The notes under the pieces were generated by a model. The model was not told where the DNA came from. It ran no database searches and was given only the letters and a program-made list of their open reading frames with translations. A program made the translations under genes and the position numbers. 64,000 nucleotides of DNA from Naegleria gruberi (Eukaryota), in NCBI GenBank assembly GCA_000004985.1, contig GG738880.1; one strand, written 5' to 3'. Below are positions 8,378-61,057 of the stretch, piece after piece (position 1 is the first letter of the stretch; each line of letters begins with the position of its first letter).

Positions 8378-9183
8378 TTGCAGTCTTTTTTTTTATTGTA
8401 GATGAAAAAATCTCTCGTTTGCTGTTGTGCTGTTGTTGGAGCTGTTCAGTTCGGTCGTTGTTGTTTGTATCTCCAAATTACTTGTTTTGATTTATTTGGA
8501 AATTTAAATGATGATTTGAGTTTGGAGAGAGGTGCTAGTGGAATTATTTGTTATATGTTGGATTGAGAAGATTTGGTAAGAAAAATGATATTGAAAATTG
8601 GCGGTTTTTTTTCAAGATAAGAAATGATATCTCGTTAATGTTTGATGTTTTTATTTTGTGTTGTTATCAATTGTTTACAAATATTACATCTGAAAAGATG
8701 ATTGAGCGGAATTGCTCTCATCACACCTCAATATTTATAAGGGAATAAGGTAACGCGATTTTTTGCATTTTTATTGTTCGTTTGGTTGGGAATCGTCGGG
8801 GATTGAAGATATTATGAGAAGTTGTAGTTTGAGAAGATATTGTTATGAGGATTTTTGTTAATTATTGTTGTAGTGGTGCTGTGCTGATTTTGTATGATGG
8901 CTGCCGAAATCCAAGTTATTGTAATAATAGCTATAATAACTGAAATTTTGCAATTTTAAGATTTCGCCATTAATTTCGGAACGTTGATGATGATCATTAC
9001 ATAAAGTATATTACAAATTAATATTAAGGAAATATTAGAAAGATTGTATTATATTATGAAATATTGATCCAAATGATTTTCAAATTATCAGGTCTTGAGT
9101 TTCTCCAAAAGAAATAGTATATATGATGAAATAATTATCATGTTCATTGAATCTGCCTAGTAATAGTATCGGAATCATTATTA

Positions 9184-10907
9184 TTAACAAGTATATGAAC
9201 CATTCCAATTCAAAAATACATAGGCACTTTCCAAAATGGATGGATTTGCTGGAGTATACATGAATACAAACTTGATTGACATTTCTGCCAATTTACCTTC
9301 TTTCAGCTTGATCATGGCTCTGGCAGTTCTTTCAGCTCTGAGATGAGATTGTTGCAAAACAGCAAGTCCATTATCGACATGTGAAATTATTGTTTCTCTA
9401 GTTGCCTTGGCTTCACATAACAAATTGAGTTGAGTTTGAATGAAATCAGGGCCCATAATTGAATCCAATCGAGTCAATGGTTGCTCTTCAAACATGGTAG
9501 AGAGTGGATCGCTCACATACTGAACAGATGTAAAATCAGAACCAACAGCAACAACACCCAATGGCTTTTCAACAAGTTGTGATGGAGTAGTGGCATCATT
9601 CACTGGATAGACATTAGTTGATGTTGAAGTAAGTGTTGTAATAATTGATGGAGTTGTTGGAGCATGCGCAATATCAGAAGAAGTCATAATCTCAACCTTA
9701 GAGAGTTTTGGTTTGGTTTCAAAGTTTTGCTCTGCTTCATTTGGAGATGATTTTCTCTTCTTTGATTCGGCTGAGGTTTTAGCTTTGGTCTTTTTACCAG
9801 ATTTACCATTTTTATCCAATGCCACTGAGGTATTATTTGATTCGATATCTTGATTTGAACCCATTGTTGATCTTCCTCTCTTCTTGGTTGATTTCATTTC
9901 CACACATTCCAAACCCAATCTTACGCATCTTTCACATGGTCGTTCGAAACCACATCTTGTATGACGTTTCTGACATTCAACACATGCTTTGCTTGCTCTC
10001 TTTCTGCCATTAGGATAGGGTGAATTCTTTTCTTGACTATTGGTTGGAGAGCTAGTTCTTGTACTGCTCTTATCTCCAGTTGGAGTTGTATTGACATTGG
10101 CATGTCCACGTTGTTTTTGGCCATTTGAACTATTGCCAGAAGAATGAGATGGTGATTTAACATCATGTTGTTGATCTTGCTCATCCTCAGTTAAATGATC
10201 AAAATCATCATCTTCTTCCTCAGCATGCTTTCTATTCGAAACAGTTCGATTCTTCCTTGATTGTCTTTGTGGAGAAGTTGCAACAATAGTTGGATTGAAA
10301 GAATGATGATCTTCAATATCGAATGAAGTTAGTGGTTCTGAATTATCCAACAAGTGAATAAAATCTTCCTCTCCTTTCAAAATTGAAACCATGCCATCCA
10401 CATGTTCAGGTGAAAAGAAGCCCTGATGTGGCTGATGTTGTTGTGATGATGATTATTATTCATGTGAGTGGTATCTACATTATAGTGGTGGAAAGTTGTT
10501 GTTGCATTATTGTTTACATGTTGTTGGAATGCTTGTTGTGGATTGGAATGTTGTTGTGGATTGTTGTGATAGAAATGTTGGTCAGGGAGATTTGAGTCGT
10601 GATAGTAAGAAGGAAGCATCATATTCTGTTTCGAATTGTGATGTTGGGAAAGGATGGCTTGATTTCTCGAATAGATATCCATCAGGGATTGTTTAGTAAC
10701 TAATCCATTCATCATCATTGATTCCATAGTGTGGTCAATTTGTGCACCACCATGTTCCAAGTAAGGATGCTGACTTGGCATTGAATAATTGTTATTATTA
10801 TTCAATGGTGGCATATAGGATGGAAATGAATTCACGAGATTACCATTGTTAATAGTACTATTATTTGTTGCTGAATTATTTGCTGCTGACATGACACGTG
10901 TAGCCAT
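9184..10907 (-). CDS. Zn(II)2Cys6 (Gal4-type) binuclear-cluster transcription factor with N/Q/H-rich N-terminus; CDS interrupted by a 1-nt frame offset between ~10377 and ~10455
   Basis: Two overlapping minus-strand ORFs are involved. ORF 10377..10907 (176 aa) starts MATRVMSAANNS and is N/Q/H-rich. ORF 9184..10401 (405 aa) contains CVECQKRHTRCGFERPCERCVRLGLEC, which fits CX2CX6CX5CX2CX6C exactly. Both frames are open over ~78 nt around a T4 run and no AT-rich intron is present there. The cause is therefore an indel (sequencing error or a real pseudogenising mutation), not splicing. Confidence 0.6.
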
Positions 10908-12582
10908 CTATCAAAAGTATTGTTGCTGAAATATTTGCTTTTGCTACTTCTATAATGTGACAATATTCTCTCAGTTGTGTCGAATATATTGTTGATGTCA
11001 GCTGAGTGAGTATGAAAGAAATGGACTAATGCGCAATTAGAAAAATCAAAACTGATGTGTCAGGCAACAGTTGTTGGTTTTTTTTGGTGTGTTTTTGTTT
11101 TTAGAATTATTGTTTTTGGGTATTAGCTGATATTGTCGAACCATGAAAGATGGTGGAGCACTATCAAACAACGCAAACACAGTTGGATTCGCATCTGTCA
11201 GATGTTCTCAGCAAAACGCCATTAATTTACTGTCAGAAACGACATCATGCCTGTTGGCGTTATGCTTTGAATTTGAGGGTACCATCAAACAATTGGTCAT
11301 AGATCAATGGTTTTAATGTCCAATATTTTGTGTGCATACCGAAACATACCGATTATTTGAGTTGTTTCGAATATGAAAACAAACAAGTAGATGACAAACT
11401 TGTTTCCTACCTTATCACCATTTGGTTTAGATCCTCAAACCAAGGCAATCCACCTGATTTATCTAATCACCCAGATCTGCAACTTTTCCTATTGCATCAC
11501 TAGATGTTAAATCGAAACTTTCGCATAACACAATTAGTATGGAAAGTTGGTACTTTCAGGCAGTGCACTGTCTTGTCTCACCTTATCTTCTTGCCTTCAA
11601 TAATGTTTTGACACAAGTCGACAAGGTTTCAGACAACATTAAGAATTACAAATCAGAGGAGTCTGAGGAGGTTGACCATATTTGTCATGCATTGCACAAA
11701 CTGTTAAAATTTTCCATTACTTATTGCAAACTTCATTCCACAAGGAAATATTATCATTGGTTCATTATGGCGCACTGTGAAAGCTTGATAGATATCTGTT
11801 GGTTGTAATCCACCATCCAAATATTGTAATAATAACATTAATGTTGTTGTATAATAGAATACATGTTGTTGTGTGGTTGCAATTAGCAATGTTTCAAAGG
11901 TTGTTGATGTTTTCTCAGTCACCACAGTAAAGACCAACACAAATTGGCATAGACCGCCTTTTCGGTTTGAATATTTCTTTTAGGAAGAAAATTAATACGC
12001 AATCTCAAGAAACGAGGTATAAACAATTATGGCTATCCATCAAAATTTGGCAGATTTGATAACTATTATAAAATTCGGCGTTTGTAAACCACTTGATTGC
12101 TTGGGACATTGGCATGTAAGGAATGCTGTTCCTTTTGGGTTCCTTTGTATAATGTTCTTCTTTAGCAATTTTGCAAACCCTCCTTCAAAACTACAGTAAA
12201 GAACTACAGTTATTAGATTTGAAACAAAGTGTTGAAAATGTTAAATAATGAACTCATTGTTTGAGGAATTGGTGCACCTGAGCTCTGTAACACTGACTTT
12301 TGTGTGTAATAGGGTAAATTAAAGCGTTGACTATCAGCACTCCGAAACCGGTTAATATTCAATGCAATATTTGTTATGAGATATCCTAATATTGAGGCGG
12401 ATCACGTACCACATGTTAAATCAATAATAAGTTCAAATGGTAAATGGGTTCAAATCTTGGCTTATGTACATGAGACCATGCGAAAGTTAGAGCATTCCTT
12501 GTTACATCAAATTCGAAAGTCAATTATCTTGTTTATCTACAGATTCTGAGTCGATTTACAATTGTACATGGTCAGGAGTTGT

Positions 12583-13809
12583 TTAAATCTTAATATTCTT
12601 CGAGTATTTAAGGTGAAGAATGATTGCTGAATAGACAAGTAGACTGTGAGCATACTTGATGTCTGTGTTAGTGATTTCTACATAAAGACCTCCCTTCAAT
12701 TTGTCAAATGCCAACAGTTGAGCACGTTTTCTATACTTCCTTTCTTTTTCTGTTACAAGATCAGACTTGGTTCCAACTAATACCACTTCCATTGGATTGT
12801 GTTGTTCCAAATCTTTGATGTGCCTATCCAATCTATCCAAAGTTAGTGCACTATTACTTAAATCAAACATGGCAAATGCTACATGTCCTCCTCTGTAGTA
12901 TATTGGAGATAGTGTTGCAAATCTCTCTGGACCACTGTAATCCCACAATTGCAATTCAGAGATGGAATTGGGAATGAGTTTGTATCTTTGTTTCAAGAAG
13001 GAAGCTCCAATGGTCGGCATGTCTTCCTTTTGTCTACAATTAATATTCTTAATGGCACACTCCAAAGTGGATGTCTTTCCCACATAACAGTCACCAAGCA
13101 TGATTACTTTGAAAATTTGTGTCCCCTCAGTGATCATTGGTTTGTTTGGTTTCCTTTCAATTTGAATCGATGATGCTGAACTGTTATTTTTAAAGAATGA
13201 TGACAAGTAATGTAAAACTGAACTCATAACACCACTACTATTCTTTTCATCTGATTTCTTCTCAATTTCTACTTTGGAATTATTAGAAACAACTTGATCT
13301 GAATTAATAGGACTTTCCACCTTCCCAAAGAATTCACTATAACACTCTATCATTTCCAATTCAGTTCCAAACCATTCATATTCTTTCTTACAAAAATCCA
13401 TTGTAATCGTTGCATGCAAATTTTGTGTTCTAACCTCACCCATCTTGGTTACCCCAATCAATCGAGTCGCCAATTCATAAACATGTTCCTTAAACATCAT
13501 CTTGATGAAATTTCTTCCCATTCTACTTTGAAAAAGGCTTGAAAATGCTTCATCACCACCACTATTATTCGAATCATCATCAACCAATTGCGCATAATCT
13601 TGATAACGTTTCCAAATGATCGGAAGGGAAATCTCCCTCCACGACCTACAAACTCTCACCACGGAAAAGATCAAGTGGGTCATGGATAAATGTTGGAAAA
13701 TCTCTCCAGTGAGTTCATCCGGAAGGGTGGAAAATATTTCCTGGAAGGAATACTGCTTGGTTTTAGAGTTGAAAAACAGGCGAGTGAGGGCTGAATTGTT
13801 GTTGATCAT
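12583..13809 (-). CDS. F-box protein with C-terminal Rab-like small GTPase domain carrying degenerate G3/G4 motifs
   Basis: 408-aa ORF with the ATG after an A10 run. The N-terminal F-box is LPDELTGEIFQHLSMTHLIFSVVRVCRSWREIS. The C-terminal region has G1 KVIMLGDCYVGKTS and G3 WDYSGPERF (DTAGQE with Q replaced by P). It also has G4 VGTKSDL (NKxD replaced by TKSD) and a Rab-like tail. Confidence 0.7.
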   Translation of the reverse strand: MINNNSALTRLFFNSKTKQYSFQEIFSTLPDELTGEIFQHLSMTHLIFSVVRVCRSWREISLPIIWKRYQDYAQLVDDDSNNSGGDEAFSSLFQSRMGRNFIKMMFKEHVYELATRLIGVTKMGEVRTQNLHATITMDFCKKEYEWFGTELEMIECYSEFFGKVESPINSDQVVSNNSKVEIEKKSDEKNSSGVMSSVLHYLSSFFKNNSSASSIQIERKPNKPMITEGTQIFKVIMLGDCYVGKTSTLECAIKNINCRQKEDMPTIGASFLKQRYKLIPNSISELQLWDYSGPERFATLSPIYYRGGHVAFAMFDLSNSALTLDRLDRHIKDLEQHNPMEVVLVGTKSDLVTEKERKYRKRAQLLAFDKLKGGLYVEITNTDIKYAHSLLVYSAIILHLKYSKNIKI

Positions 13810-15278: not shown

Positions 15279-16652
15279 TTATTGTTCAGTGTACTTTTTC
15301 AATTCTTGTTGGAGATTCCAATTTTCCTTTTCCAAAGCTTCAACACGTTGTCTCAATTCTTCATTTTGCTTGACCAATTCTTGTGGATTTGAAGTCTTGG
15401 CTGGCAAAACAGTCTTTGGTTGTTTGGCCTTAATTTCAACGTTTGGTTTGAAATCACGGAATTGAACATCAATTTCCTTATCTTCTGGATTCATGGAAAC
15501 CAAAGATAATTCAGCATCTTGACCAGAGAAGTAATCAGAAGCAGACAAGGCAGGAGATGGAGAAGCAGTCTTTGGATAGATATCAGATTGGAACAATTCA
15601 GACTTTCTTGGAACAGTGAATGAAATTGGAGTAATTTGATTAGCAGTCAACTTGAACAATCTGACAATTTCGTTAGAAGTAGTATCAACAGCAATCTTTG
15701 GAAGCATAGCCATACCCATTTGTGGATCAGTTGATCTAAATTCAGACAATGAGTGAATGTATGGTTCTTCATTAGTAACTTCAAAGAATCTAATGTTACC
15801 ATCACCCTTACCAGCCAAGAAGAGCAAATTAGTATCTGGATCATAGAATGGCATAATCAAACCAGAAGCCATATCAATATTAACAGTGTGCAATGGCTTT
15901 TCCAATGAACGTGGATCCCACATCATGTATTGTCTTTCAGAGGTCTTTGAGAAACCAACAGAGAACAATCTATCAGTATTGGTAATCCATTGAACACGAG
16001 ATCCCTTAGTACCACCATGACCTTCAACTTCAAGAGCAACTGCACCCTTTCTAGGATCAATAATTCTCAACTTTTTATCCTTTGAAGTGGAGGCAAACAA
16101 TGAACCATTCTTATTGAAAGAAATTGATTGAATATCTTTCCACAAATCTTTCATTTCAACTTGGCTCTTACCAGTTTCAATATCCCACAAAACAACTTTG
16201 TGATCTTGACCAGCAGTCAACAAGACATTGTTAGCAGTTGGATGGAATTCCAACAAACCAACCTTCTTCATGTGACCTTCCAATGTAACTGATGGTTCAG
16301 TAACAGTGCTTGTCAAACCATCTTGTGGAATTGACCAAATCTTGGCAGTAGCATCAACTGAACCAGTTGCCAAAATATATTGATTGAATGGATGGAACTT
16401 TAAATCCAAAACAGCACCAGTGTGGCCAGATAAAAGTGGCAAATCAGCAGCTTGTTTACCTGGAGTCTTTTGGTTCAAAACAGCAACTGAACCACCACCA
16501 CCTTGCCATGGAACAGCAACGAACAAGGCATTAGCAGCAAGCCAATTAGAATCCCAAGCACCAACATTTGGACGAATGTTTTGGAAGGCGAATTCTGCCT
16601 TGTATGGTTCACCGAAAACGTGACGATAGAGTGATGATCTGACAATGGACAT
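15279..16652 (-). CDS. corA: Coronin (actin-binding WD40 propeller with C-terminal coiled coil)
   Basis: 457-aa ORF starting MSIVRSSLYRHVFGEPYKAEF..WDSN. It contains the LLSGHTGAVLDLKFHPFN WD repeats and FSKTSERQYMMWDPRS..GLIMPFYDPDTNLLFLAGKGDGNIRFFEV. The coiled-coil tail is ELVKQNEELRQRVEALEKENWNLQQELKK. It is collinear with Dictyostelium coronin as I recall that sequence. Confidence 0.9.
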   Translation of the reverse strand: MSIVRSSLYRHVFGEPYKAEFAFQNIRPNVGAWDSNWLAANALFVAVPWQGGGGSVAVLNQKTPGKQAADLPLLSGHTGAVLDLKFHPFNQYILATGSVDATAKIWSIPQDGLTSTVTEPSVTLEGHMKKVGLLEFHPTANNVLLTAGQDHKVVLWDIETGKSQVEMKDLWKDIQSISFNKNGSLFASTSKDKKLRIIDPRKGAVALEVEGHGGTKGSRVQWITNTDRLFSVGFSKTSERQYMMWDPRSLEKPLHTVNIDMASGLIMPFYDPDTNLLFLAGKGDGNIRFFEVTNEEPYIHSLSEFRSTDPQMGMAMLPKIAVDTTSNEIVRLFKLTANQITPISFTVPRKSELFQSDIYPKTASPSPALSASDYFSGQDAELSLVSMNPEDKEIDVQFRDFKPNVEIKAKQPKTVLPAKTSNPQELVKQNEELRQRVEALEKENWNLQQELKKYTEQ

Positions 16653-17833: not shown

Positions 17834-20800
17834 ATGTCATCAACCCGATCAATTTTCCTTCAAATTTTCATCACTTCCTTCATTGTTTTGTTTTTTTCAT
17901 CATTTAATTGTTTTTTATTATTATCAGATAATGAACATGATAATAATGATGGAATAATCATACAATCGACAAGAGAATCAGGATTAAGTTTCGGATTGGT
18001 GGAAGCTAGTCTATTTTATGGAAATATTACACTTTCGAATATGAATTATTTGACCTCTCTTAGGTATAATCCAATTTATTATGATTATCCGAATGGAATT
18101 TTATATGCTTTTGGAGGAAATGATAGTAAGAAACGAGTTACAAAATCAGTGGCTGCTACTAAATCTTTAAGAGAAATTAGAAAAAGTAATGGAAACGTTT
18201 ACAATACAACTGTTCATTCAGATTTTGGAGATTTTCAACAAATTTCAACTCTCACCACTGCTATGGTCAATTATGCTGTTTATTCGATTAATAATCCAAC
18301 TGGTGGAAGATTAGTTTATTTATTTGGTGGAGATTCAACATTTGGAATTATTCAGGCCTCTAACTCAATTACTAATCTAAATTATTATTCACCAAATTTG
18401 GCAAATATTCCACCAACCTATTTTGCACACTTCATTACTGAACAATATATTTATTTAATTGGTGGTATTTCGAATGGTGGTGTTTATGATAATGGAATTT
18501 TCAGAGCTAATCTTTCAAGTTTATTAACTCAATGGGAAAGATTTGCTGATTTTCCAGTAACTATTGCAAAGGCAAATGCATTTCTATTGAATGGAGATGT
18601 TTATGTCATTGGTGGAAAGAATAATGAGACTGATGATAATCGGATTGTTTATTCTGTTCCATTGAATGATTTGGAAACACTTTCTGCTAATTTTATTGAG
18701 ATTGCTACCTTGAGCCGACCAACAGTTGGTTCTTCACTCGTATTGACAAGGGATTATGGTTTCCTATTTGGAGATGAGAATGCTGGTTCTGGAGTAGGTA
18801 TTGATACTGTCCTTGTTTTTCCCACAAGTGATGTTTCACAAATATTCGAAATTGGTATCAATGATTATTATTTCTCTTATGGTGTTCCAGTTGTGGTTTC
18901 TGGAACTATTGCTAGTTTCTTTGAGAGCACTCGTTCAGAACTTGTTGAAATTGAATTGGCATCAGATGCAGTTCCATATTGTTTCGGATTGGATGCAACG
19001 AATCCAGTTGCATGTTCGGGACATGGAAATTGTGTTGCCAATGAATACTGCAGCTGCAAGAGAGGATATTATGGCATGGATTGTTCAGTCACCTTTCTAT
19101 GCAATGGAACCATTTCCTATTCTCAGAATGTGTGCAGTGGCTACGGTTCTTGTGTCAATACGGATGAATGTTCCTGTAGAGCCAATAGAGATGGAAAGTT
19201 TTGTCAATTCAGTTATTGTAGTGGTATTCTTAATACTGATCCAACAGTTTGTAATGGAAAGGGATCTTGTGTGAATTCAGTTTGTCAGTGTGAGCAGGGA
19301 TTTTATGGAAGTGAGTGTAAGAATTATTCGTGTTACGAAATACCTTCCACTAATTCTTCAGCTGCATGTTCAGGACATGGCACTTGCAATTCACCAAATA
19401 ATTGCACTTGTTATGGACCTTATTCTGGAGACATGTGTCAGAGATTTTATTGTGGAATTTTCTCGAATGAAGATGCCGATATGGCTTGTAGTGGGAATGG
19501 AAAGTGTACTGAACCTGGCAAATGCACATGTAACAGTGGATTTTATGGAGCCAATTGTGAATCTTTTAATTGTTATGGTGAAATATTCAATAGTTCAAGA
19601 GTGTGTAATGGAAACGGTTCATGTATTTCACCAGATCACTGCACATGTCGAAATGGCTATACTGGATCAAACTGCTCAATTCCAACTTGTTTTGGAGAGA
19701 ATGGCACCTTGGCTTGTGATTCACACGGAATTTGTACAGCTCCTGATACATGTAATTGTACAGGAGGATACTATGGCAGTAGATGTTCAATGTTTACGTG
19801 TTTTGGAGTCGATTACAAGGAACCATCTGTTTGTTCTTCTGAAGGTTCTTGTGTAGCTCCAGATACTTGTGAATGTAATCAATTCTATACAGGAAATAAC
19901 TGTTCTCATTACACATGTTTTGATGTGAGAGATGACAATTCAACTTTAGTTTGTTCAGGAAATGGAAAATGTACCAAACCTAATGTTTGTTCATGTAAGG
20001 AGGGATACACTTCTGCCAATTGCTCTGCGTATTCTTGTAATGGTATTGGACATGATAATTCAAAGGTCTGTAACTCTGTTGGTGTTTGCACATCACCAAA
20101 TAATTGTACCTGTCAATCAGGTTACTATGGTTCTGATTGCCAAGTTTCAGAGTGTTTTGGAATTAGAAGTGATAATCAAAGTGTTTGTTCTGGAAGAGGT
20201 GAATGTAGTGGAAGAAATGCTTGCAACTGCTCTCAAAATTATTTAGGATCCCAATGTGAATTGACATCTTGTTTCGGCATTCTTTCGAATATATCCAATG
20301 TCTGTAATGGAAATGGAAAATGCATAGACTTTGATCAATGCTCTTGTAAGGAGGGATATTCAAGTCCCCAATGCACAGATTTCTATTGTGGAACTTTTCA
20401 TTTTAATAATTCTGCAACTTGCTCCGGAAAGGGAAGTTGTGTTTCGCCTAATTCATGCAACTGCTCAATTCCCTACTTTGGAAAGTATTGTGAAAACTTT
20501 AATTGTTTCAATATTTTGAATAACCAATCAACAGTTTGCTCTTCACATGGATCTTGCATAGCTCCCGATACTTGCAAATGTGAAGAAGGTTATTTGGGAC
20601 AAAATTGTTCCTCCTTTTCATGTTTCAACAAGACAGCTGATAGTGATGATGTTTGTTCTGGAAGAGGTTTATGTATTTCACCAAATACATGCATGTGTAC
20701 TGTGGAAGGGTTCCTTGGAATGGATTGCAACTTGTCATTGCCATTTGATATTTATTTGAATGTTTCGAATAGTATTGTTATTTATAGTGATGATAATCCA

Positions 20801-23800
20801 ATTATTGGATTCAAAGTTTTATCAAATTATAACGAATCTGATTTCTTTGGATACAGATTAACATCTTCTGGAATTGCTCCTGTCAATCAAAAGAGCAATG
20901 AATTTACTCTTGACACTAGTCAACTTTCTATTGGCCTTACCAATTATTTCCTAATTGCCAGATTGAAGAACAGCAGAACTTCCTCATCTCTAAAACTTTC
21001 TGTTGTGAAATTACAAAAATCCAGACCATCAATTGCAATTTCCAAGTTTGTATCTGTCAATGTTCCTGAATTTATTGTTTCTAGAAATGCCACAACATTT
21101 GACTTTTATTTATTGAACTTGACAATTAGTGGGCAGTCTGTTTCTTCATTATTTGGATGTAATTCTAAATGTTTAGCCGATTATTCTTATTAATATTTAC
21201 TTGACAGGTGATTCTTTGGATTCAGTTTACAATATTTCCTCTTTACAAAGTTCTTCCTATGTTCTTATCAGTGATGCAAGCAATTCTATTGGATTTAGTC
21301 CAATTCTTCAAATTCCATCCTTTACTCTAACTAAATCTCAATTGGAACAAGCAACATTTTTACAATTTGATTTTACAATTGGATCTGCAATTGGTTCCAA
21401 GAGAATTCCAATCATTTCTGCACCAAAACCAAAGAATGGTGTACTCACAGCTAGTAGCTCAATTTCAAGAGGAGTTGCCCTGACAGATGCCTACAACATT
21501 GCATCAGTTGAGTTTTCAGCTGCCACTCAATTGTTACCTCTCAGTTATGCTTATGCATTCTATGAGCCATCACAAGGCAGAGTTCTTAGAATGAGTTCAT
21601 TCTCTACTAGCTCAGTTGCCTCCATTTATTTACCATTCATTGCAAGCAGTGGAAACGTCAGTTCAGTTGACATTTATTTACTTGTTAAGGATGATTTGGA
21701 TTTTATTGATCAGTATTACATTTTCACTCTAGAAGTCACACCATATTTAGGAAATACTGATTCATTGTTCAATCAAACTCTTCCAGATTCTATCAAGACA
21801 GTTTTTGCGTATGATAATTCCATCAAACAGTCGAATTCTGTTGCAGATCAAGTTGTGAAAAACATTGAAATTCCAACAAATTCACCAGAAGCATCTCTCT
21901 CTGTCATTCAACAAATTCTTCCACAAAATGCCAATACTCCATCAGTAGTTAAGGAAGTTCAATCAAAAGTTCAATCATTCCTTGGCAGTGTCCAAACAAG
22001 TCAATCAGAGGAAATGAAAAAGTATGGTTTCGTAAAGAATCCACTCAGTAGTACTGCACTCCAATCGACTTTGAATCTCATTTCGGATTTATTCTCATCC
22101 AATAGGAAATATCCAGCTACTGGAAACACTTCAACAACAGAATCTCTAGTTTTATCATTTAGTAAGATTTTACTTTCGAATGCTTTACCGAAAGTTGTCA
22201 ATTCCAAAGATTCAGACCTACCAAATGTTAATTATCATTCCAGTGAAATGAATGTCACTGTCTCTTCACTAATTTTCGGCTCAACCACTGACAATGCAAT
22301 TCAACAAACTCTTCATGGAACAAACTCACAACTTTCATTGAATTTAAAGAAAGTTGCCAAACAATTTGGTGGAGAATCAACAAATATTGGATTATCATTG
22401 ATAACCTATTCTCAAAATGTTAAATCGGATAATTATTCTGCAAGTGTTCAATCTGGATCAACTCTGGTTGAATTTAAATATTATCAAGATGCACAAGTAG
22501 TGACATTGAAGGATTTGGATTCACCATTTACTTTGATATTCACACCACTCAATGATCAAATCAAACAAAATTTAACACTCAACACTACGAATGTTAAATG
22601 TATGTATTGGAATGAGGAAGTGTCAATGTGGAAATCAGATGGCTGTCAATATTCAAATTCCTCAAAAGATTCTATCATTTGTCAATGCACTCACACAACC
22701 AAATTCTCCACTTTTATTGAGTATACTTCATCCTATTCGAACACAACTAAATTGACCGAAACTGAACTATTGTACATTGCCAGCGTGTACAGTGCAGAGA
22801 TTAGTTTTGGAATAATGTTTGCAATCTGCTCTGCCATCATTCTCATTGTCTTGATTATTTACAGGAAGGAACAACCATTACTTTCAAGATTCTTGACTCC
22901 ATTCTTGGGAATGCTTGCTCTATTAGTGGAAAGTGTTTTAATTTCAATTGTGCAAAGATCTGTACTTGTTAGTCAACTCTTACCAAGTCAATCTAAAATG
23001 TGGGAATCTGGAGGCGAAACTGCCACTAATATTGTTGGAAATGTCACTATGATTATTGTAAACACATTGAATTTGACAGCCATCTTGGCATATGTCATCC
23101 AAGTTATTAGATTCCAGCTCCTCAAATATTTATATGATGTGATAGCTCAGAAGAATAATGGTCAATCATTCATGATGAAAGTATTGAGATTCGTCACTTC
23201 TAAAAAGCTTTTCGTCACTCTGATTGTCATTTCATTAATCTTTAATTTGTGCTATTGGTTAATGTGGGTCTTGTTAGTGAGATTGAGTGTTATTACTGCA
23301 TCTGTTTATACTGAGGCAGTTTCCATTTCGTATACAGTTATTATATTCGGATATAGTGTGATTATTAGTATTATAGCAATTGTGGATATTATTTCTAGTA
23401 CAAGACAAAAGAAGATTAAGAGGAGAAGAAGGTCAACTGTCAATTCATTGTCTTCAACTAGCTCAACAAAATCATCCCAGTCACTTATTCCATCAAAATC
23501 TACTCGAAGATTCTTTTATTTGGATGCTCCTTTATTTTTCAGATCTGAAATGTTCATGTATTTGGTCTGTTTTGCACTCATGATTATTCAACAAGTTATT
23601 GGATTAGTTTCTAATAATTTCAGATTTATTGATGCAAATGCTTATGAAATTGCAATTTATTTTGATGGAATTCGATTTGCATTTGAAGTATTGTACACTT
23701 GTGTGTATTTACTTGTATTTGGAGGTTTTGCTATTCTTGTACTAATTGTCTACAAGGTAAAAATTAACAAGAGAAGAAAACAACTGGTCAACCAAGATTT

Positions 23801-24281
23801 ACAAGATACTGAAATGATTGAAACCATCTCGGATGACAGAGGTTACGACCTCTTTGAACAATTCTGCATCCAAGAATTAGCTACAGAAAATCTCTACCTC
23901 TTGGAATTACTGAGATACAATCCAGAGTTTGTGGAAGGAAGAAGTATGAATGAATTGCCAAACTTTTTAGAAACCATTCATGATTTGTTCATCAAGACTG
24001 GAGCCGTTTCTGAAGTGAATATTCCATCAACAACTAGAAAGAGATTCCTGCAAATGATGAAACTTGTAAAGGAGGAAAAGAAAATGTCAGTTGAAAAGAT
24101 AACTCTTGAAGTTCAGCAATGTTTTGAAGAATTGCATGATCAAGTTTCTGTTAATTTGGGAGATACCTTTTCAAGATTTGTTCTAACAGAAATTTATGAG
24201 CAATACAGGAATCAACGTGCTTTGAAAATGGAATTGGTCAAACAAGCCAATATTGATATTGAATTGGAAAATTTGAAATAA
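17834..24281 (+). CDS. Giant adhesion-GPCR-like receptor: signal peptide, Kelch-like beta-propeller, ~25 tenascin-type EGF-like repeats, GPS/GAIN motif, 7TM domain and C-terminal RGS domain; 2 exons (17834..21158, 21208..24281)
   Basis: ORF 17834..21193 (1119 aa) has an N-terminal hydrophobic signal sequence. It has Kelch-like blades (YAFGGNDS, YLFGGDST, YLIGGISNGGVYDNGIFRAN, VYVIGGKNNETDDNRIVYSVPLNDLE). From ~18990 to ~20740 there are repeated CSGxGxCxxxxxCxCxxGYxGxxC EGF modules. ORF 21201..24281 (1026 aa) is in the +1 frame. The join is made by a short intron: donor GTAATT at 21159 (49 nt) or GTTTAG at 21171 (37 nt), with acceptor ..TTGACAG at 21207. Both options are in frame and give ..LFGC|DSLD... 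Exon 2 carries the GPS motif CMYWNEEVSMWKSDGCQYSNSSKDSIICQCTHTTKFS (~22591..22710). Seven hydrophobic helices follow (~22790..23760). Then comes an RGS domain DRGYDLFEQFCIQELATENLYLLELLRYNPEF..FSRFVLTEIYEQY (~23836..24220). Confidence 0.8.
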
Positions 24282-24411: not shown

Positions 24412-27400
24412 TTAAAAAAGATCATCTTCTCTTGCTTGTTCAGCTACAAAAATCTTCATCTTCTCCATTACTCTCCTAGAAATATAGAACAAGTGTGTAT
24501 CAGAAAGTCTTTCAAAGAGTGGGGAATTGTACAAGTGTTCCAATAACATGCAAGTTTCTGGGAGAATGCCTTCACCATGTAATTCTTCCAAGCAATATTC
24601 TGTTAATCTGAATATCGAAGTGGCCATGGCAATCTTCTCCTCATCCAAATCTTCATTACTATCAGAAATTACATGTTCAATGAAACTAGAACTGAAGGAC
24701 ATGTATTCAGGGGCAACAAGATCAATATCAATCAAACTAATATAAGCAATAGTAATGCAAACATTTGATAAATATCCAGTAATGTCATCAATAACCTCTT
24801 CAGTTGTGTAAAAGTCCTTATTGGCAAATAATTTCAAAACTCGAATCAATTTTGGAGCCATCTCCTTCATGAACTTGTAAAATCTTTCATCTTTAACACC
24901 CTTTCTACCAGCAGATAGAATAACTCTTCCCAAAGACCATACTGCATTGTGATAGACAATAATCTTCTTTTTCATGATGGAATCATCTTCAAGAGTAGTC
25001 TCCTCATAAAATCTGTCACCTACAACGGCTTCCTTTTTCAAAACCTGAAAGACAAAATCATATAAAAAGTCGTGGGTTGCATCTTGTGGAGTAACCTTGC
25101 CAGTTTCCTTATCAACATCGAATGGACACAAATGGAACAAGTCAGCATTACTCATATTACCAATGGTGTGAACAGCACAATCTCTGGCTCTGTAATTACA
25201 ATGGTTATGGCAAACTCTGACGAATTGTGTGAGGAAGGTGAACATGTCGTGTTTCTGGAAGAGTTCTACAAGAACCTTGCCATCAATATTTCTCATAACA
25301 GCATTAATTGTTGTAGAAAAGGCAGAAATTAAATCTTCAGTCTTGTCAACTTCCTTCAATGTGAAAATATTTTGCATAATTTGCTTCTTTCCATAATCGA
25401 GGAATTTCTCAATAAGATTGGTATCTGAAAAGTGCCTTGTAAATTCCAACGAGTCGTAGAATGAGTCAAAGAGACAAACCACAACAAGGTGATGTTGTCT
25501 CTTCTTTTCTTCTTCAGTGAGATTTTCCAAATCTTCAGGATAAATCAACTCTCCACTTTCACATATCTTTTCAAACAAGTTGGAATATAACTTGTTAAAA
25601 TGTGGTGTGAATCTAGTGTAGGTTCCCTTAGAGTATGATGTTTTGGTAGTGACTATTGGTTGATTGTCATCATCTACGAGAGTAATCTTTCCACTCTCGA
25701 GCTTGTCTGTAACAGCTGTAATAATGACACTGAATTTCACAAAGTTCTGTACAAAGGTCTCGCAAGTTTTCAGAATTTCTAAAATAAAACTCTCCTTCAA
25801 GACTTTCATTTCTGAAATGTAGCTGGCAAGTGAGACACAGGCAGCTTCTCTAATGCTATAGTGACTATCTACAAGCTTTTTAGGCAGCAATTCCATAATT
25901 TCCTTTCTGAAAACATGAATAAACTCAATAATCTCTTTGATTTCATCAGAGGTATCAGCTTGATTGCTAATATGTTCAATTAGACCCCAATTATTCGAGG
26001 CCTCTCCTTCTCTGTTGGTATACAGCTTACTGAAGGCAAATGTGACCAAAATGGCGGTTTGCTTTACTATAATGTCATGAATATCCACTGGTGCTTGTTT
26101 CATTTCTTCCAAAGCATAACGACAGAATGGATCCACAAAATTTTCAATAACAAATTCAACAATTTCATAACTTGGAACAACATTTCCAGTTACTCCACCT
26201 TTTTTCAAGACATCATTAATTATTCAAATTTGTAATTTAACAATATTAAATGAAATATTAAATATGAAATTAACATCAAATGATAAAATTTCTCACATAC
26301 CTCCTAGAGTAATATTAGTTGTGAGCATTTCTCTCACTAGAATACCCACACAATTGTAGGCCTTTTGACGAACAGTCCAACTGACTTTTCCTCTATTTCT
26401 TCCCTCCGTCAGTCGTAAAAGAGGATTTGACACACCGGTTACTTTCAAGTCCTCTAAAAGCATTGGTAACAGAGCTATACAAAGTGGCTTACCAAAGCAA
26501 TTGCACAAGGCTCCTACTACTGTTTGTGAGTGAGCTCGTATGCTGTCCATATTTCTAAGTAGACCCTCTCGAATGTGAGATTGAGTACTCTCATATTCAC
26601 TAAACTCGTAAATTAAAGGAAGGAATGGTTCGAACATATAATCCTTGATGATGTGAGCAATGAATCTCTTCATGTCCTTGATTTGTGCAATTGTAAGATT
26701 GGTTTTGAGTGGATCCGAGAAGGTTGAATGTTGCATTGTTGATGATGGTGTTGTTGTTGTTCTTATTTCATCTAGCTCGTTTGCTCCAACAGTTCTGAAA
26801 CCTCTTCCGTCAAATACATCCTCAAGTTCATCTTCTTCATCTTCGTCGTCTTCATCCTCTTCGTCTTCCTCATCGAGAGCCATTTGTTGATCTTCTCTGT
26901 GAGTTGAAGTAATTGAAGAGATGAATACTCCCCAATAAATTAAGCATTCCTTCAATAGTCTTTCTTCAATGATATTTCTATTCCATTGAGTAATTTCCGA
27001 AGAGGTGGCATTATCGAGAGTGTGTTTTACCTTTCTATCATAGAAATACTTGAGTAGAATGAATTGGAAGAAGGGTAAACTTTGGAAAGTCGATCCCTTC
27101 AATTCTGGTGCTTTCTTCTTCTTGATTGCATTCAAAATTCGCTGTCTATCTGTTAATTTTGGTTTTGGACCAAATTCATGTAAGTATTTAATTCCCCAAG
27201 GTAATAACTCTGTTAAAAAACTAGTAAGGAAATAATACATGAGCATTACCCAATTGGGTATTGAATCATTCTCATTAGTATAAATAACTGTAGCAGCATG
27301 TGTCCTCCACGGAAGAACCTTAAAAGTATTATCCTCTTCCTCTGCCCACTTTTCATAATCATACTCCTTGTAATTATCCATGAATATCTGATAGGATTTT

Positions 27401-28361: not shown

Positions 28362-31300
28362 ATGAATGATTACGTAGCCAACTATTTAATCAAGAATAAT
28401 TTCATGCTCACTGCATTGGAATTCTATCAAGAACTTTTGGAAGAAGGACAAGAATTAAAACTTTTGAGAGATTACTTTGAAAACAAGGAATATAAGAATG
28501 AACAAGCATCATCATCCAACAGCAATGGTATGATGATTCAAGTCGATTCACAACATACAAAAGCTCTCGAAGAACAATTAAAAAAGAAGGATGAAACCAT
28601 TTCAATGATGGAATACGAAATTAGACTTCTCCAATCAGATATTGCCAAATTAAAAGGTCAAGCAAAGGAAAGTTTTGTTATACCAACAGTAAACAAAACA
28701 GCTAAAGCAAATGAAAACACTGAAGGTAATGAAGATGAAAATGCCGAAGGAAATGATGAACCTACAACACCAAATGTAGATCACAAGATGGCCTCCGAAC
28801 CATTAACAGTACACGAAAAGCAAGTTGTAAATTATCTTGTTAAAGATTACTTGGTTAAACAAGGATATAAAATCAGTGCTATTAGTTTCACTGATGAAGT
28901 ACACGAAATGGACATGTTCAATTTAGATGAAGTTTTATCAAATAGTGATGAAAATGAATTGCCAATAGGTTTGTCATATCTGTATAGACACTATTATAGT
29001 GGAGGTGATAAGACCAAACAAAATATGAAGGACACAAAGGCACTCAGAGAAGCTCTTGCTCAATTGGAACAAAAGGATAAATTGATTCAATCTTTGGAAA
29101 AGTCAATTCAACGTCAAGATAAAGCAATAGAAAAGCTCAAGTCTCAACTTGAATCTAATGCAACATCAGCAACTACTTCAGATGAAACACCACTAAATTC
29201 AAGCACTGATGAATCTAACTCAGTTGTTTCACAAGATGTTATGGTACTTCAAGCCAAACTTAGAGAATTTGAAAATCAAGAATCGAGTATTATTCAAATT
29301 TTGGGTGAAAAACTCCCTGCTCTTTTGGAAACAGCCAAATCAAACAAGAGACAAGAATTCATGCCAATTCTTGTTGCAACCCTCCAATCACACCCAGATG
29401 CCGAAGTGAGAGAAACACTCTCCGAATCTCTATTCAATCTCATCAAGAAACCTGATGATCAACAACGTCAAATGATCATTAATGGATGTATTAGTTTAGC
29501 TAGACGTATTTCTCCAGATAGATTTGAAAAGGAACTTCTCCCTCAATGTTGGAAACAAATTACTCACAAGTATACTGAAAGAAAAATACTGGTTGCTGAG
29601 GCCTGTGGTGAATTATCTCACTACGTAAAGGCCTCTCTGAGACCAACAATGCTCTTGACAACTCTCTTCAAACTCATGGAAGATAAAACTGATGAAGTGA
29701 GAGCTTCAGTTGTTATCAACTTGGCCAAATTAGTCAAGACTTTCACAGAGGAAGAAGATGTTGAAAGTAAGAGTAAATATTTCCAAATCGAAGAAATGAC
29801 ACTCAAATTCCTGTACGATAAGTCAGAAGCTGTTGAAGATGCTGCAACAACACAACTTGTACCATCTCTCATAACATGGTGCTTTACCTTTGATTATTTA
29901 TTTGAAAAGTTTGCTCCAACCCTGTTGAGTAACATTGAGAATTTGATTAAGAAGAGACTCAAGAGTGGATCAAATGCCAGTAGCTCCAAGATTGTTGTCC
30001 TTTTGAGATGTTTCAGTGGTGTCATACCATACATTCTCAAATTAATGACCAAGACAATGCCAGCAGAAATTCACAACTCTGAAAATACCAAGGATGAACA
30101 ATCCATGAAAAAGATTATGGATAAGTATATTGGAGAAACTTCTCTTTCGGATTTGGAAAAGACCAAGTCTGCATCTTGGAAGGGTCTTTACTGGTTACTC
30201 AATGTTTGCACCAGAAGACTCTTATCTGTTGCTGCCTCTGTAAACATTGAACATACCAATGTAAGTATATGGATTTTAATTGTTAATATCAACAATATTT
30301 AAAGATTTCTAAAGAAATTTACACAATTTTCAATGGATTATGTGAAGCATTTGGAGAACCTGTTATTTCAAAGATTTTCGAACAAAAGATTGTTTCCCTC
30401 TTGGAAACAAGCTCAGACACCATCATTGACGGAACTATTGAAGTTGTAAAGAAGGAAAAGGACACTGAAAGAACCAGTGTAACTATTGTAAAGGAAAGAC
30501 TCTTACCAGTGTATATTTGTGGTGTATTACCATTCAGTCCTAAGGAAAGAATTTCTGAAGTACTGAGAACACTCATTATCAATGTATCCATCTCAGAGAG
30601 AACATGGGAAAGCTCACATATGCCATTCTTGTACAATGCCCTTATTAGCGGTGTAACCATGAATGAAAAGCTGAGAAATGACATTCTTACTGTTGTATGC
30701 AAACTTGCTGTTAATCCTTCCAAGGTTGTTCGTTCATCAGTTGCTGATATTTTAACTGAATTAATTGAACCATTGGAATCTGAAATTTTGGCAGCTCAAA
30801 TCTTGCCTGCACTCATTACAGTTGCCTCTGATATGGAATCTGACATTAAGATGAAGGCTGTTAGAGGTTTGGGAATTTTGGCATGTAGTTTGAGTGAAGT
30901 AGCAGATTTTAACAAGCTCTCCACTCAATTTGACATGCTTTTAGATTCTAGAGATAGAAGTATGTTCAAGGAAGTGTTGAACGTTTTTTCAGAAATTATT
31001 CCTCAAGTTGATCCATACTTCCGTGATAGTTTCATGATTAAGAAATTAGTCTGGCTAGGTAAACAAAATAACCAAAATAGTGATTTGAGAGATCGTAGAG
31101 ATACTGCCAATTTATTATTGGACAATTATCGTGCTCTTAATGGATGTATTATGACCGATGAAATTATTTCTGACATTATTGAAGGATTGAAACTCTTGTC
31201 GAATGATTGTGAACTCATTACTGACTCTTCTGTAGCATCATTTGTTTCACAAATGAAAGAAGAATTGGAAGCCATTGTCCAACAACATGCCAAGGAACAA

Positions 31301-60125: not shown

Positions 60126-61057
60126 ATAAAATGAGCGAGTTGGAGCATAATCTTTGATTTTATGTCAAAGGTCTATAGTAAAATGATAGAGTTGACAACT
60201 CAATATCTACTGAACCAAAATTAATGAAATTGATATTATATGCTAATTAGAGTGTCTACATATCATGGTATTAATTTCAGTGAAAATGGAGTTGTTTCTA
60301 TATCTTTCAGATTTCCAGCCATTCTCTTGAAATATCACCATGTACTATCTACTGAATGCATTTGTTGAAATGAAATTATATAATTTGATGAAATTACACT
60401 TTATTTGAGATGTAGAACACGATATTATCATTTATTTTGAGATTGGTAACTTTTCCTATAGTGTCATCCTTAATTGTCTTAATTGACTAAAAAAGGTCAA
60501 GGAGATATTTCAAAATATAAAATAAATTATATTTTCGAGATGTACTATTGATTTCCAATCGATTGATATGTATTTTGTTGATTGACGAAGTGGTTCTCTA
60601 TTTGAAGATTTCCTCCTTGATCTTTAAAGACAACCTTGAAATTTCACCCTTTACCTTACTGAAAGATAGAATATTCTCCAAAATGTCTGAAAATTGAACC
60701 ATATACATTATTTGAGATGTTGAACATGGTGGTAAAGTTGCATAGAGTGGTCATTTTCCAGATTTTCATCCATGTCCACAGTTGACTAATTGGTATGATA
60801 GAGTTGAAATCATGAACATGAAAGTGAAAATAAACTTGATTTTCTATCTCTACTCGTAGAGTGAAGCATTTTCATGTATATATTGTTGGTTGAAGTGATG
60901 TATTTGATAGAGTTAGTGTGACTTGTCTTTCCTTAAAGTCAACCATAAAATATCAACATTTACCTTCCCATTATACCATTTCTGATTATTAAGACATGAA
61001 ATTGAATTCTATATCATTATATATCATGTACATCATTTTGGTAAAGTTTTAATAGGT

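What the first reader, a model, noticed from the sequence alone, without database searches (positions are those of the whole stretch)
9184..10907. Gal4-type Zn2Cys6 transcription factor outside fungi, split by a single-nucleotide frame offset
The cysteine spacing CX2CX6CX5CX2CX6C is exact, and a basic linker follows it. The fold is near-exclusive to fungi, with a few amoebozoan members. Here an N/Q/H-rich activation-like N-terminus (176-aa ORF) and the DNA-binding part (405-aa ORF) are in frames offset by one base. Both frames are open over ~78 nt around a T4 run (~10377..10455). No AT-rich intron is available, so this is either an assembly indel or a true recent pseudogene.
Basis: seen in the sequence. 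Interest (0 to 1): 0.5.

Follow-up and report, generated by a model that had tools for sequence, protein, structure and literature searches.

The report
Frame-broken Naegleria zinc-cluster PAS regulator
This is an already annotated Naegleria gruberi gene for a Gal4-type zinc-cluster DNA-binding protein that also carries a PAS sensor-like domain. Its reading frame is broken by one missing base, which the public annotation hides behind an invented intron, so the finding is real but largely ordinary.

Summary
The window is Naegleria gruberi NEG-M, a heterolobosean and not an amoebozoan. On the minus strand, 10907..9184 holds one intronless gene (NAEGRDRAFT_69827, EFC42412.1).

The exact Zn2Cys6 motif lies at 9984..9904. 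It passes Pfam Zn_clus (34.8 bits against a cut-off of 21) and matches the solved Put3, Pho7, Lac9, Ppr1 and Leu3 domains.

The two ORFs (176 and 405 aa) are offset as described. A ~99% identical environmental contig carries an uninterrupted 571-aa ORF. The only frame-changing difference is one extra A at window 10450/10451, not at the T4 run.

The public 545-aa model bridges the break with an 86-nt "intron" (10517..10432). That segment has coding-like composition, stays open in frame and starts with GTAAAC. Three real introns in the window are 17-25% GC.

Reads are needed to tell a consensus error from a real frameshift allele. I lean to consensus error. The 9 synonymous and 8 non-synonymous differences, none changing the folded domains, argue against an old pseudogene.

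The parts
9184..10907 (-). Whole gene (NAEGRDRAFT_69827 / EFC42412.1 / D2VLL8). It is one intronless coding region of about 574 codons once the missing base is restored.
   Evidence: The intact 571-aa ORF in the ~99% identical contig L001 is. The N. fowleri orthologue is a single 2445-nt ORF.
10451..10907 (-). N-terminal N/Q/H-rich disordered region, read in the upstream frame (the part of ORF-A that is really coding). It contains one weakly predicted helix.
   Evidence: 35.5% N+Q+H. The chance that 152 codons stay open at this base composition is about 1e-5. The region is colinear with L001. AF2 pLDDT is below 50 apart from a helix at residues 71-93.
10450..10451 (-). Site of the frame break. 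One A is absent relative to the intact relative: window AATC-ATCATCA, L001 AATCAATCATCA.
   Evidence: DNA alignment. Inserting an A gives a 574-aa ORF.
10377..10455 (-). Stretch open in both frames, bounded by TAA 10455-10453 of the downstream frame and TGA 10379-10377 of the upstream frame.
10432..10517 (-). The 86-nt 'intron' (GTAAAC...CAG) used by the public 545-aa gene model to bridge the frame break. Judged spurious.
   Evidence: P0017 equals exon 10907..10518 plus exon 10431..9187. The segment is 32.6% GC and open in the upstream frame. It is present and in frame, as 87 nt, in L001. Real introns are 17-25% GC and start GTAAGT, GTATGT or GTAATT.
10366..10416 (-). Conserved short helical motif FSPEHVDGMVSILKGEE, in the downstream frame. 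It starts upstream of that frame's first ATG (10392) and runs across it.
   Evidence: Matches FTPDHVDHLVSSLKGED of P0046 (E=2e-4). It aligns with VDHLVSFLKGEGF of N. fowleri and VDHLISFLKGDGF of N. lovaniensis. AF2 predicts a helix at 166-176 with pLDDT about 60-67.
9868..10017 (-). Conserved DNA-binding block YPNGRKRASKAC...KKRGRS. It contains the Zn2Cys6 binuclear cluster (six Cys at 9984..9904).
   Evidence: Pfam Zn_clus 34.8 bits. The block is invariant across 8 family members. Among 14 members, five Cys are invariant and the first is conserved in at least 90%. The profile hits Put3, Pho7, Lac9, Ppr1 and Leu3 in the PDB. AF2 pLDDT is 83-95.
9565..9867 (-). Basic K/S-rich disordered linker between the Zn cluster and the PAS domain. 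No coiled coil is predicted.
   Evidence: 18 K/R in the first 70 residues after the cluster. pLDDT is below 50 and there is no helix at residues 348-442.
9187..9564 (-). C-terminal PAS-fold domain of about 125 aa, ending ...YVFLNW. The stop codon is at 9186..9184.

Best explanation
The region 10907..9184 (minus strand) is a single intronless Naegleria gruberi gene for a transcription regulator.

The protein has four parts in order:
- a long disordered N/Q/H-rich N-terminus with a short conserved helical motif;
- a Gal4-type Zn2Cys6 binuclear-cluster DNA-binding domain;
- a basic disordered linker;
- a C-terminal PAS-fold domain.

By analogy with zinc-cluster proteins, the Zn cluster reads short CGG-containing sites. 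The PAS domain most likely provides dimerisation, ligand or partner sensing, or both. The N-terminus would act as an activation or interaction region. All of this mechanism is inferred.

In this assembly the frame is broken because one A is missing at 10450/10451 relative to an otherwise ~99% identical sequence that keeps one open frame. This is shown directly. The public annotation compensates with a spurious 86-nt intron that deletes 29 codons.

I judge the missing base most likely to be a consensus error of the draft Sanger assembly of a heterozygous genome. It sits in a short-repeat context, (AAT)3 followed by CA(A)TCATCA. The next most likely option is a real frameshift on one allele. The gene as such is functional.
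For: - **Organism and locus:** exact matches of neighbouring ORFs to N. gruberi proteins on a 416,450-bp contig.
- **Public model:** it is 545 aa and equals the two ORFs joined across 10517..10432.
- **Intact relative:** L001 is a 2,496-bp contig of an ENA metagenome assembly with an uninterrupted 571-aa ORF.
  - Its 5' and 3' flanks are near-identical to the window.
  - Its other coding indels are 6, 3, 3 and 3 nt.
  - The only frame-changing difference is +1 A at 10450/10451.
- **Substitutions:** 9 synonymous against 8 non-synonymous differences, with only synonymous ones in the Zn cluster and PAS domain.
- **Upstream coding:** ORF-A is unlikely to be open by chance (about 1e-5).
- **Motif across the ATG:** the conserved motif FSPEHVDGMVSILKGEE lies in the downstream frame and begins before its first ATG. 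Coding must therefore continue upstream.
- **Orthologue:** the N. fowleri gene is one 2445-nt ORF.
- **Introns:** real introns in the window are 44-102 nt, 17-25% GC and carry stops in every frame. The bridging 'intron' is 32.6% GC and open in the upstream frame.
- **Assembly quality:** near-identical duplicates around gaps elsewhere in the window look like uncollapsed haplotypes. Naegleria is described as a heterozygous diploid (PMC9928731).
Against: - No reads or transcripts were available, so an error and a real allele cannot be separated.
- Dropping a non-homopolymer base is not a typical Sanger error.
- No second N. gruberi NEG-M sequence of this locus was found in the protein collections.
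- N-terminal similarity to the N. fowleri and N. lovaniensis orthologues is not significant by BLAST (E=0.35). The evidence that ORF-A belongs to the gene therefore rests on L001, on ORF length and on adjacency.
- L001 comes from a metagenome of unknown origin.
- DNA-binding specificity, dimerisation and any ligand are wholly inferred.
Confidence: 0.55

Rival explanations
1. The one-base deletion is real in strain NEG-M, on one or both alleles. This allele would then be a very recent frameshift. It would make either a null or an N-terminally truncated 402-aa protein from Met 10392 that still has the Zn cluster and PAS domain.
For: - The assembly reads a clean deletion in a short-repeat context where replication slippage is plausible.
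- The gene shows several other indel polymorphisms against L001.
- Naegleria is a heterozygous diploid (PMC9928731), and NEG-M is a long-cultured laboratory strain (my own knowledge).
- No independent NEG-M sequence contradicts the deletion.
Against: - All the other coding indels keep the frame.
- The substitution pattern is that of a constrained gene.
- The folded domains carry only synonymous changes.
- A draft assembly of mixed haplotypes is prone to consensus errors of exactly this kind, and haplotype artefacts are seen at 46.6-51.4 kb and 62.5-63.3 kb.
Confidence: 0.35
2. The public gene model is right. An 86-nt GT-AG intron (10517..10432) is spliced out, and the 545-aa protein is the true product.
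For: - GT...AG borders exist, and removal restores the frame.
- In L001 the same segment is 87 nt, so removing it there would also keep the frame.
- The length lies within the range of real introns in the window, 44-102 nt.
Against: - The segment is 32.6% GC, like the exons (36.7-37.6%), against 17-25% GC for three real introns.
- It starts GTAAAC rather than GTAAGT, GTATGT or GTAATT.
- It stays open in the upstream frame and encodes the same N/H/T/Q-rich sequence as its surroundings.
- Dozens of other GT/GC-AG pairs restore the frame equally well by chance.
- The N. fowleri orthologue has no intron.
Confidence: 0.06
3. The two ORFs are separate genes, or they are joined during translation by programmed -1 ribosomal frameshifting.
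For: There is a 73-nt overlap of the two open frames.
Against: - No X XXY YYZ slippery heptamer occurs anywhere in ORF-A.
- The intact relative encodes one ORF.
- A conserved motif in the downstream frame starts before its first ATG and runs across it.
- ORF-A alone has no Pfam domain.
Confidence: 0.02

Closest known systems
Fungal Zn2Cys6 (Gal4-type) zinc-cluster DNA-binding domains with solved structures: Put3, Pho7, Lac9, Ppr1, Leu3
   Same: - The CX2CX6CX5CX2CX6C spacing is the same.
- Pfam Zn_clus is above its cut-off.
- The family profile aligns to Put3 (E=5.7e-6), Pho7 (7.9e-6), Lac9, Ppr1 and Leu3.
- A basic stretch follows the cluster.
   Different: - The host is a heterolobosean.
- No coiled-coil dimerisation element is predicted after the cluster.
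- There is no Fungal_trans 'middle homology' domain.
- A PAS-fold domain sits at the C-terminus.
- In Naegleria the cluster lies about 300 residues from the N-terminus.
Fungal AcuK/AcuM subfamily (Ert1/Rds2/Gsm1, Aod2/Aod5, Rse2/Rse3, Cwt1/Zcf11, Pas2): Zn2Cys6 plus PAS regulators of gluconeogenesis, alternative oxidase and hypoxia responses (PMC12719309)
   Same: The two-domain architecture is the same: a Zn2Cys6 DNA-binding domain followed by a C-terminal PAS domain. In the fungal family the PAS domain is proposed to mediate partner interaction. This is the best functional analogy.
   Different: - Sequence-level relatedness could not be tested because no fungal member could be retrieved.
- The fungal PAS domain is recognised by sequence methods. 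This one is seen only by fold.
- The fungal proteins act as heterodimers of two paralogues. Only one family member was found for N. gruberi.
- N. gruberi lacks the 'LG[YFH]' glycine that most other family members keep. Whether it corresponds to the glycine mutated in the fungal PAS domains was not tested.
Zinc-cluster transcription factors of Amoebozoa (22 in Acanthamoeba castellanii, 3 in Dictyostelium discoideum; PMC4053784)
   Same: These are non-fungal Zn2Cys6 proteins, which shows that the domain is not strictly fungal.
   Different: They belong to a different eukaryotic supergroup. No Amoebozoan protein appeared among the 24 relatives of the C-terminal domain.
Other DNA-binding-domain plus PAS regulators (bHLH-PAS proteins AHR, ARNT, NPAS, HIF)
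   Different: The DNA-binding domain is unrelated and there is no detectable sequence similarity. These have two PAS repeats in tandem, whereas this protein has one PAS domain.

Membership tests
Zn2Cys6 binuclear cluster (Gal4-type) DNA-binding domain, Pfam PF00172 | Six cysteines spaced CX2CX6CX5-12CX2CX6-8C | tested here: met
   CVECQKRHTRCGFERPCERCVRLGLEC lies at 9984..9904 and is the only match in six frames of the window. Across 14 relatives, five Cys are invariant and the first is conserved in at least 90%.
Zn2Cys6 binuclear cluster (Gal4-type) DNA-binding domain, Pfam PF00172 | Profile match above the curated gathering score | tested here: met
   34.8 bits against a cut-off of 21, E=1.8e-8, covering profile positions 1-38 of 39. 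All 14 family members match.
Zn2Cys6 binuclear cluster (Gal4-type) DNA-binding domain, Pfam PF00172 | Sequence relationship to experimentally solved Zn2Cys6 domains | tested here: met
   The family profile hits Put3 1ajy (5.7e-6), Pho7 6o19 (7.9e-6), Lac9, Ppr1 and Leu3.
Zn2Cys6 binuclear cluster (Gal4-type) DNA-binding domain, Pfam PF00172 | Binds two Zn(II) ions and CGG-type DNA half-sites | not testable with these tools
   This needs metal analysis and a DNA-binding assay.
Classical fungal zinc-cluster regulators (Gal4/Ppr1/Leu3 type) | Coiled-coil dimerisation element directly after the linker | tested here: not met
   In the AF2 full-length model, residues 348-442 have pLDDT below 50 and no helix. 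A prediction cannot fully exclude such an element.
Classical fungal zinc-cluster regulators (Gal4/Ppr1/Leu3 type) | Fungal_trans (PF04082 or PF11951) middle homology region | tested here: not met
   No such Pfam hit at E<=1 in the window protein or in any of the 14 family members.
PAS domain superfamily | Five-stranded antiparallel beta-sheet with flanking helices (PAS fold) | tested here: met
PAS domain superfamily | Sequence-profile match to a Pfam PAS family | tested here: not met
   There is no PAS hit for the window protein. One of 14 relatives reaches PAS_9 at E=0.098. The PDB sequence profile gives nothing significant.
Fungal AcuK/AcuM (Ert1/Rds2) Zn2Cys6-PAS subfamily | Zn2Cys6 domain followed by a C-terminal PAS domain | tested here: met
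   Architecture shown. The family definition comes from PMC12719309.
Fungal AcuK/AcuM (Ert1/Rds2) Zn2Cys6-PAS subfamily | Specific sequence relationship (orthology or sister group) to AcuK/AcuM over other zinc-cluster proteins | not tested
   No fungal AcuK/AcuM sequence could be retrieved.
Fungal AcuK/AcuM (Ert1/Rds2) Zn2Cys6-PAS subfamily | Two paralogues acting as an obligate heterodimer | tested here: inconclusive
   Only one N. gruberi protein (P0017) appears among the relatives of the C-terminal domain in 1.84 billion representatives and in the profile search. Dimerisation itself cannot be tested here.

The most novel reading that the evidence does not exclude
The heterolobosean Zn2Cys6+PAS proteins (Naegleria, Willaertia, Acrasis, Pharyngomonas) could be specifically related to the fungal AcuK/AcuM (Ert1/Rds2) regulators. 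If so, this 'fungal' metabolic-switch architecture either predates fungi or moved between fungi and Heterolobosea. It might then control respiration, gluconeogenesis or alternative oxidase in Naegleria as it does in fungi.
Probability: 0.3. Interest if true: 0.5.

Novelty: new member of a known kind. Interest (0 to 1): 0.27.

Why it matters
**Practical.** The public protein D2VLL8 / XP_002675156.1 is probably wrong. It lacks 29 residues because a spurious intron hides a one-base frame break. The locus should be re-checked against reads.

**Biological.**
- Zinc-cluster regulators are still widely called fungus-specific (for example in PMC12719309).
- This gene belongs to a small family conserved across Heterolobosea.
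- The family couples the Zn2Cys6 domain to a PAS-fold domain that sequence methods miss.
- The fungal AcuK/AcuM metabolic regulators have the same layout.
- If the two families are related, that bears on the origin of the largest fungal transcription-factor family. It would also give a testable candidate regulator of metabolic switching in Naegleria, a genus that includes the pathogen N. fowleri.

None of this is very surprising to a specialist, because non-fungal Zn2Cys6 proteins are documented in Amoebozoa and the Naegleria orthologues are already labelled by InterPro-derived names.

Tried and rejected
- **Intron enumeration:** listing every GT/GC-AG pair that restores one ORF gave dozens of chance solutions, so frame logic alone cannot pick an intron.
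- **Exact look-ups:** the 176-aa, 405-aa and 402-aa ORFs are not in the protein collection, so there is no independent N. gruberi contig of this locus. No gene with exactly the product P0017 is on record.
- **N-terminal BLAST:** ORF-A against the N. fowleri and N. lovaniensis orthologues is not significant. I do not use N-terminal homology as evidence.
- **C-terminal sequence searches:**
  - The PDB sequence profile gave only noise.
  - The word-indexed protein search with the C-terminal alignment returned nothing, not even the family itself (unexplained).
  - Pfam found no PAS domain.
- **Literature:**
  - No paper pairs Naegleria with Zn2Cys6 or Zn_clus.
  - The eukaryote-wide transcription-factor survey I remembered (de Mendoza et al. 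2013, PNAS) is not held.
- **Programmed -1 frameshifting:** rejected, because ORF-A has no slippery heptamer.
- **T4 run as the indel site:** rejected, because both T4 runs are identical in L001.
Full report
**Origin of the window.** Four complete ORFs near the finding are exact matches to Naegleria gruberi proteins that all lie on one 416,450-bp contig. They include coronin EFC42415.1 (window 15279-16652, minus strand), EFC42414.1, EFC42417.1 and EFC42333.1. The window is therefore N. gruberi strain NEG-M, a heterolobosean (Discoba). It is neither a fungus nor an amoebozoan. GC content is about 34%. Surrounding genes are ordinary Naegleria genes: a dual-specificity phosphatase, an F-box/Ras fusion, a zinc-type dehydrogenase and a hybrid histidine kinase.

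**Checking the observation.**
- The minus strand carries ORF-A (10907..10377, 176 aa) and ORF-B (10401..9184, 405 aa from a GTG).
- The ORF-B frame is open from 10452, after TAA at 10455-10453. ORF-A ends with TGA at 10379-10377. Both frames are therefore open over 10377..10455, as reported.
- Passing from frame A to frame B needs one extra base, two fewer bases, or an intron whose length is 2 mod 3.
- ORF-B contains CVECQKRHTRCGFERPCERCVRLGLEC, which is exactly CX2CX6CX5CX2CX6C, at 9984..9904. It is the only such pattern in all six frames of the window, even though Cys-rich EGF-like ORFs lie elsewhere.
- Pfam Zn_clus scores 34.8 bits against a cut-off of 21, E=1.8e-8.
- The next 70 residues contain 18 K/R, and the N-terminal 152 residues are 35.5% N+Q+H.

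**What the public annotation does.** A protein search returned the NCBI/UniProt model of this gene: P0017 = EFC42412.1 = XP_002675156.1 = D2VLL8 = NAEGRDRAFT_69827, 'predicted protein', 545 aa. Its sequence reads ...QQAFQQH|PHQGFFSPEH.... That equals exon 10907..10518 joined to exon 10431..9187. The annotators therefore bridged the frame break with an 86-nt GTAAAC...CAG intron at 10517..10432, one of many GT-AG pairs that restore the frame.

**The intact relative.** The same search found P0016, a 571-aa protein encoded as one uninterrupted ORF on a 2,496-bp contig of an ENA metagenome assembly (L001). L001 aligns to window 11394..8896 at about 99% identity, including almost identical 5' and 3' intergenic flanks.
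- Within the coding region there are 17 substitutions and four indels of 6, 3, 3 and 3 nt.
- There is exactly one frame-changing difference. L001 reads AATAATAATCAATCATCA where the window reads AATAATAATC-ATCATCA, at window 10450/10451.
- Inserting that A gives a 574-aa ORF in the window.
- Both T4 runs in the overlap (10416-10413 and 10382-10379) are identical in the two sequences.

**Evidence for one intronless gene.**
1. ORF-A is unlikely to be open by chance. The probability is about 1e-5 for 152 codons at this base composition.
2. The motif FSPEHVDGMVSILKGEE (10416..10366) lies in the ORF-B frame, and its first eight residues lie upstream of that frame's first ATG (10392). It is conserved as FTPDHVDHLVSSLKGED in a related metagenomic protein (E=2e-4). 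It appears as VDHLVSFLKGEGF in N. fowleri and VDHLISFLKGDGF in N. lovaniensis. Coding must therefore continue upstream in that frame, which confines the break to 10452..10417.
3. The N. fowleri orthologue (814 aa) is a single 2445-nt ORF.
4. Three real introns in the window are 44, 102 and 49 nt (30261..30304; 26300..26199 on the minus strand; 21159..21207). They are 17-25% GC, begin GTAAGT, GTATGT or GTAATT, and the one translated here (30261..30304) has a stop in every frame.
5. The annotated 86-nt 'intron' is 32.6% GC, against 36.7-37.6% for the exons. It begins GTAAAC and stays open in the upstream frame, encoding VNNNATTTFHHYNVDTTHMNNN... in the same style as its surroundings.

I rate a genuine intron at about 6%. 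One caveat applies. In L001 the segment is 87 nt, so frame logic alone cannot exclude splicing there. N-terminal similarity to the N. fowleri and N. lovaniensis proteins is not significant, and I do not rely on it.

**Error or real allele?** This cannot be decided without reads.
- *Against an old pseudogene:* there are 9 synonymous and 8 non-synonymous differences to L001. All non-synonymous ones lie in disordered regions, and only synonymous ones fall in the Zn cluster and PAS domain. Every other indel keeps the frame.
- *For a consensus artefact:*
  - The assembly is a draft of a heterozygous diploid (PMC9928731).
  - The window holds 98-99% identical duplicates around N-gaps that look like uncollapsed haplotypes.
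  - The break sits in a short-repeat context in a gene with several indel polymorphisms.
- *For a real allele:* a clean single-base deletion outside a homopolymer is not a typical Sanger error, and slippage in this context is plausible.
- *My split:* about 55% consensus error, 35% real and probably heterozygous frameshift, 6% intron, and 2% other readings.
- Programmed -1 frameshifting has no slippery heptamer to support it.
- Even a real frameshift would leave a 402-aa ORF from Met 10392 that still carries both folded domains.

**The protein.** A full-length AF2 model of the intact version shows only two confidently folded parts.
- The Zn cluster, residues about 300-345, has pLDDT 83-95.
- A C-terminal domain, residues about 445-568, has pLDDT 82-97.
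- Two weak helices lie at 71-93 and at 166-176. The second is the conserved motif.
- Everything else is disordered, including the basic linker at 348-442, where no coiled coil is predicted.

A family profile matches the solved Zn2Cys6 domains of Put3 (E=5.7e-6), Pho7, Lac9, Ppr1 and Leu3.

**Distribution.**
- A profile of the C-terminal domain, searched against 1.84 billion representative proteins, finds only 24 proteins at E<=1e-3.
- The named ones are N. gruberi, N. fowleri, N. lovaniensis, Willaertia magna, Acrasis kona and Pharyngomonas kirbyi. All are Heterolobosea.
- The rest are unnamed metagenome or SRA-assembly proteins.
- Seven of the distant members (P0032-P0037 and P0045) also start with a Zn2Cys6 motif.
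- The block YPNGRKRASKAC.ECQ.RHTRCGF.RPC.RC..LG..C......KKRGR is almost invariant in the closer family members.
- Only one member was found per Naegleria genome.
- UniProt already names the N. fowleri and N. lovaniensis proteins 'Zn(2)-C6 fungal-type domain-containing protein'. NCBI names the Acrasis protein 'GAL4-like DNA-binding domain'.

**Likely mechanism (inferred).** The Zn cluster binds short CGG-type sites, as in its solved relatives. No coiled coil follows it, so dimerisation or partner and ligand sensing most probably resides in the PAS domain. The disordered N/Q/H-rich N-terminus and its conserved helix would serve activation or cofactor binding.

**Comparison with what is known.**
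- Non-fungal zinc-cluster factors are documented in Amoebozoa, with 22 in Acanthamoeba and 3 in Dictyostelium (PMC4053784).
- The closest architectural match is the fungal AcuK/AcuM subfamily (Ert1/Rds2/Gsm1, Aod2/Aod5, Pas2). These are Zn2Cys6+PAS proteins that work as heterodimers and control gluconeogenesis, alternative oxidase and hypoxia responses. Their PAS domain is required for function (PMC12719309).
- I could not test sequence-level relatedness to that subfamily. My recollection that their Zn clusters look similar is a lead only.
- I therefore file this gene as a member of the Zn2Cys6 superfamily with a PAS-fold domain. It works like AcuK/AcuM in layout, but membership of that subfamily is untested.

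**Verdict.**
- The 'split' is a one-base deficit at 10450/10451, masked in the public annotation by a spurious intron. It is most likely a draft-assembly error or one allele, not an old pseudogene.
- A zinc-cluster gene in Naegleria is already visible in databases.
- The modest new content is the PAS-fold domain and the Heterolobosea-wide Zn2Cys6+PAS family.
- Interest is about 0.27.

Noticed in passing
window 46660-48000 vs 48750-50184; 50601-51409 vs 62485-63294: These are direct duplicates at 98-99% identity, spaced about 2.2 kb and 11.9 kb apart, next to N-gaps (about 50.2-50.6 kb and 55.4-60.1 kb). They repeat the 5' part of a hybrid histidine-kinase gene and a 215-aa ORF, and the copies differ by small indels (GEDVPFSNNF vs GEDVHVPFSNNF). 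This looks like uncollapsed haplotypes or a mis-join in the draft assembly.
   Followed up: partly
window 47570-48688 (+) and 61407-62222 (+): A hybrid histidine kinase appears split across the gapped and duplicated region. HisKA is in the first piece, and HATPase_c plus a response-regulator receiver are in the second.
   Followed up: partly
window ~61056-61350 (+): A long GT-rich hexanucleotide-type microsatellite translates as VWVWVW... and then GFGFGF..., directly before a short N-gap.
   Followed up: no
window 12583-13809 (-): A single 408-aa ORF combines an N-terminal F-box with a C-terminal Ras/Roc-type small GTPase domain, which is an unusual fusion.
   Followed up: no
window 41622-44111 (+) and 51992-54202 (-): Two paralogous membrane proteins of 736-829 aa have similar N-terminal extracellular-like regions and no Pfam hit at E<=1e-3. 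By eye their C-termini resemble nucleotide cyclase domains. This was not tested.
   Followed up: no
window 17834-21193 and 21201-24281 (+): A giant protein of more than 2,100 aa has many EGF-like Cys-rich repeats followed by a multi-pass membrane region. The two ORFs are joined by a 49-nt AT-rich intron at 21159-21207.
   Followed up: partly
P0024 (N. fowleri FDP41_006869) vs P0020; P0023/P0026 (N. lovaniensis C9374_014312/014313) vs P0025: Public models of the orthologues are also inconsistent. P0024 replaces the conserved C-terminal ...YVFLFW with unrelated sequence. One N. lovaniensis assembly splits the gene into a 547-aa protein and a 238-aa protein. This family seems prone to mis-annotation.
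   Followed up: no
window 9480-9520 (-), PAS domain of the N. gruberi protein: N. gruberi (both the window and L001) has ...PLSTMFEEQPL... where most other family members (11 of the 12 others seen) have the conserved ...L..(K/R)LG(Y/F/H)... segment, so it lacks that glycine.
   Followed up: no
(tool behaviour): The word-indexed protein search with the C-terminal domain alignment returned no hit at E<=1e-3, not even the family members themselves. The exhaustive HMM search with the same alignment found them at E down to 1e-61. This is unexplained.
   Followed up: no
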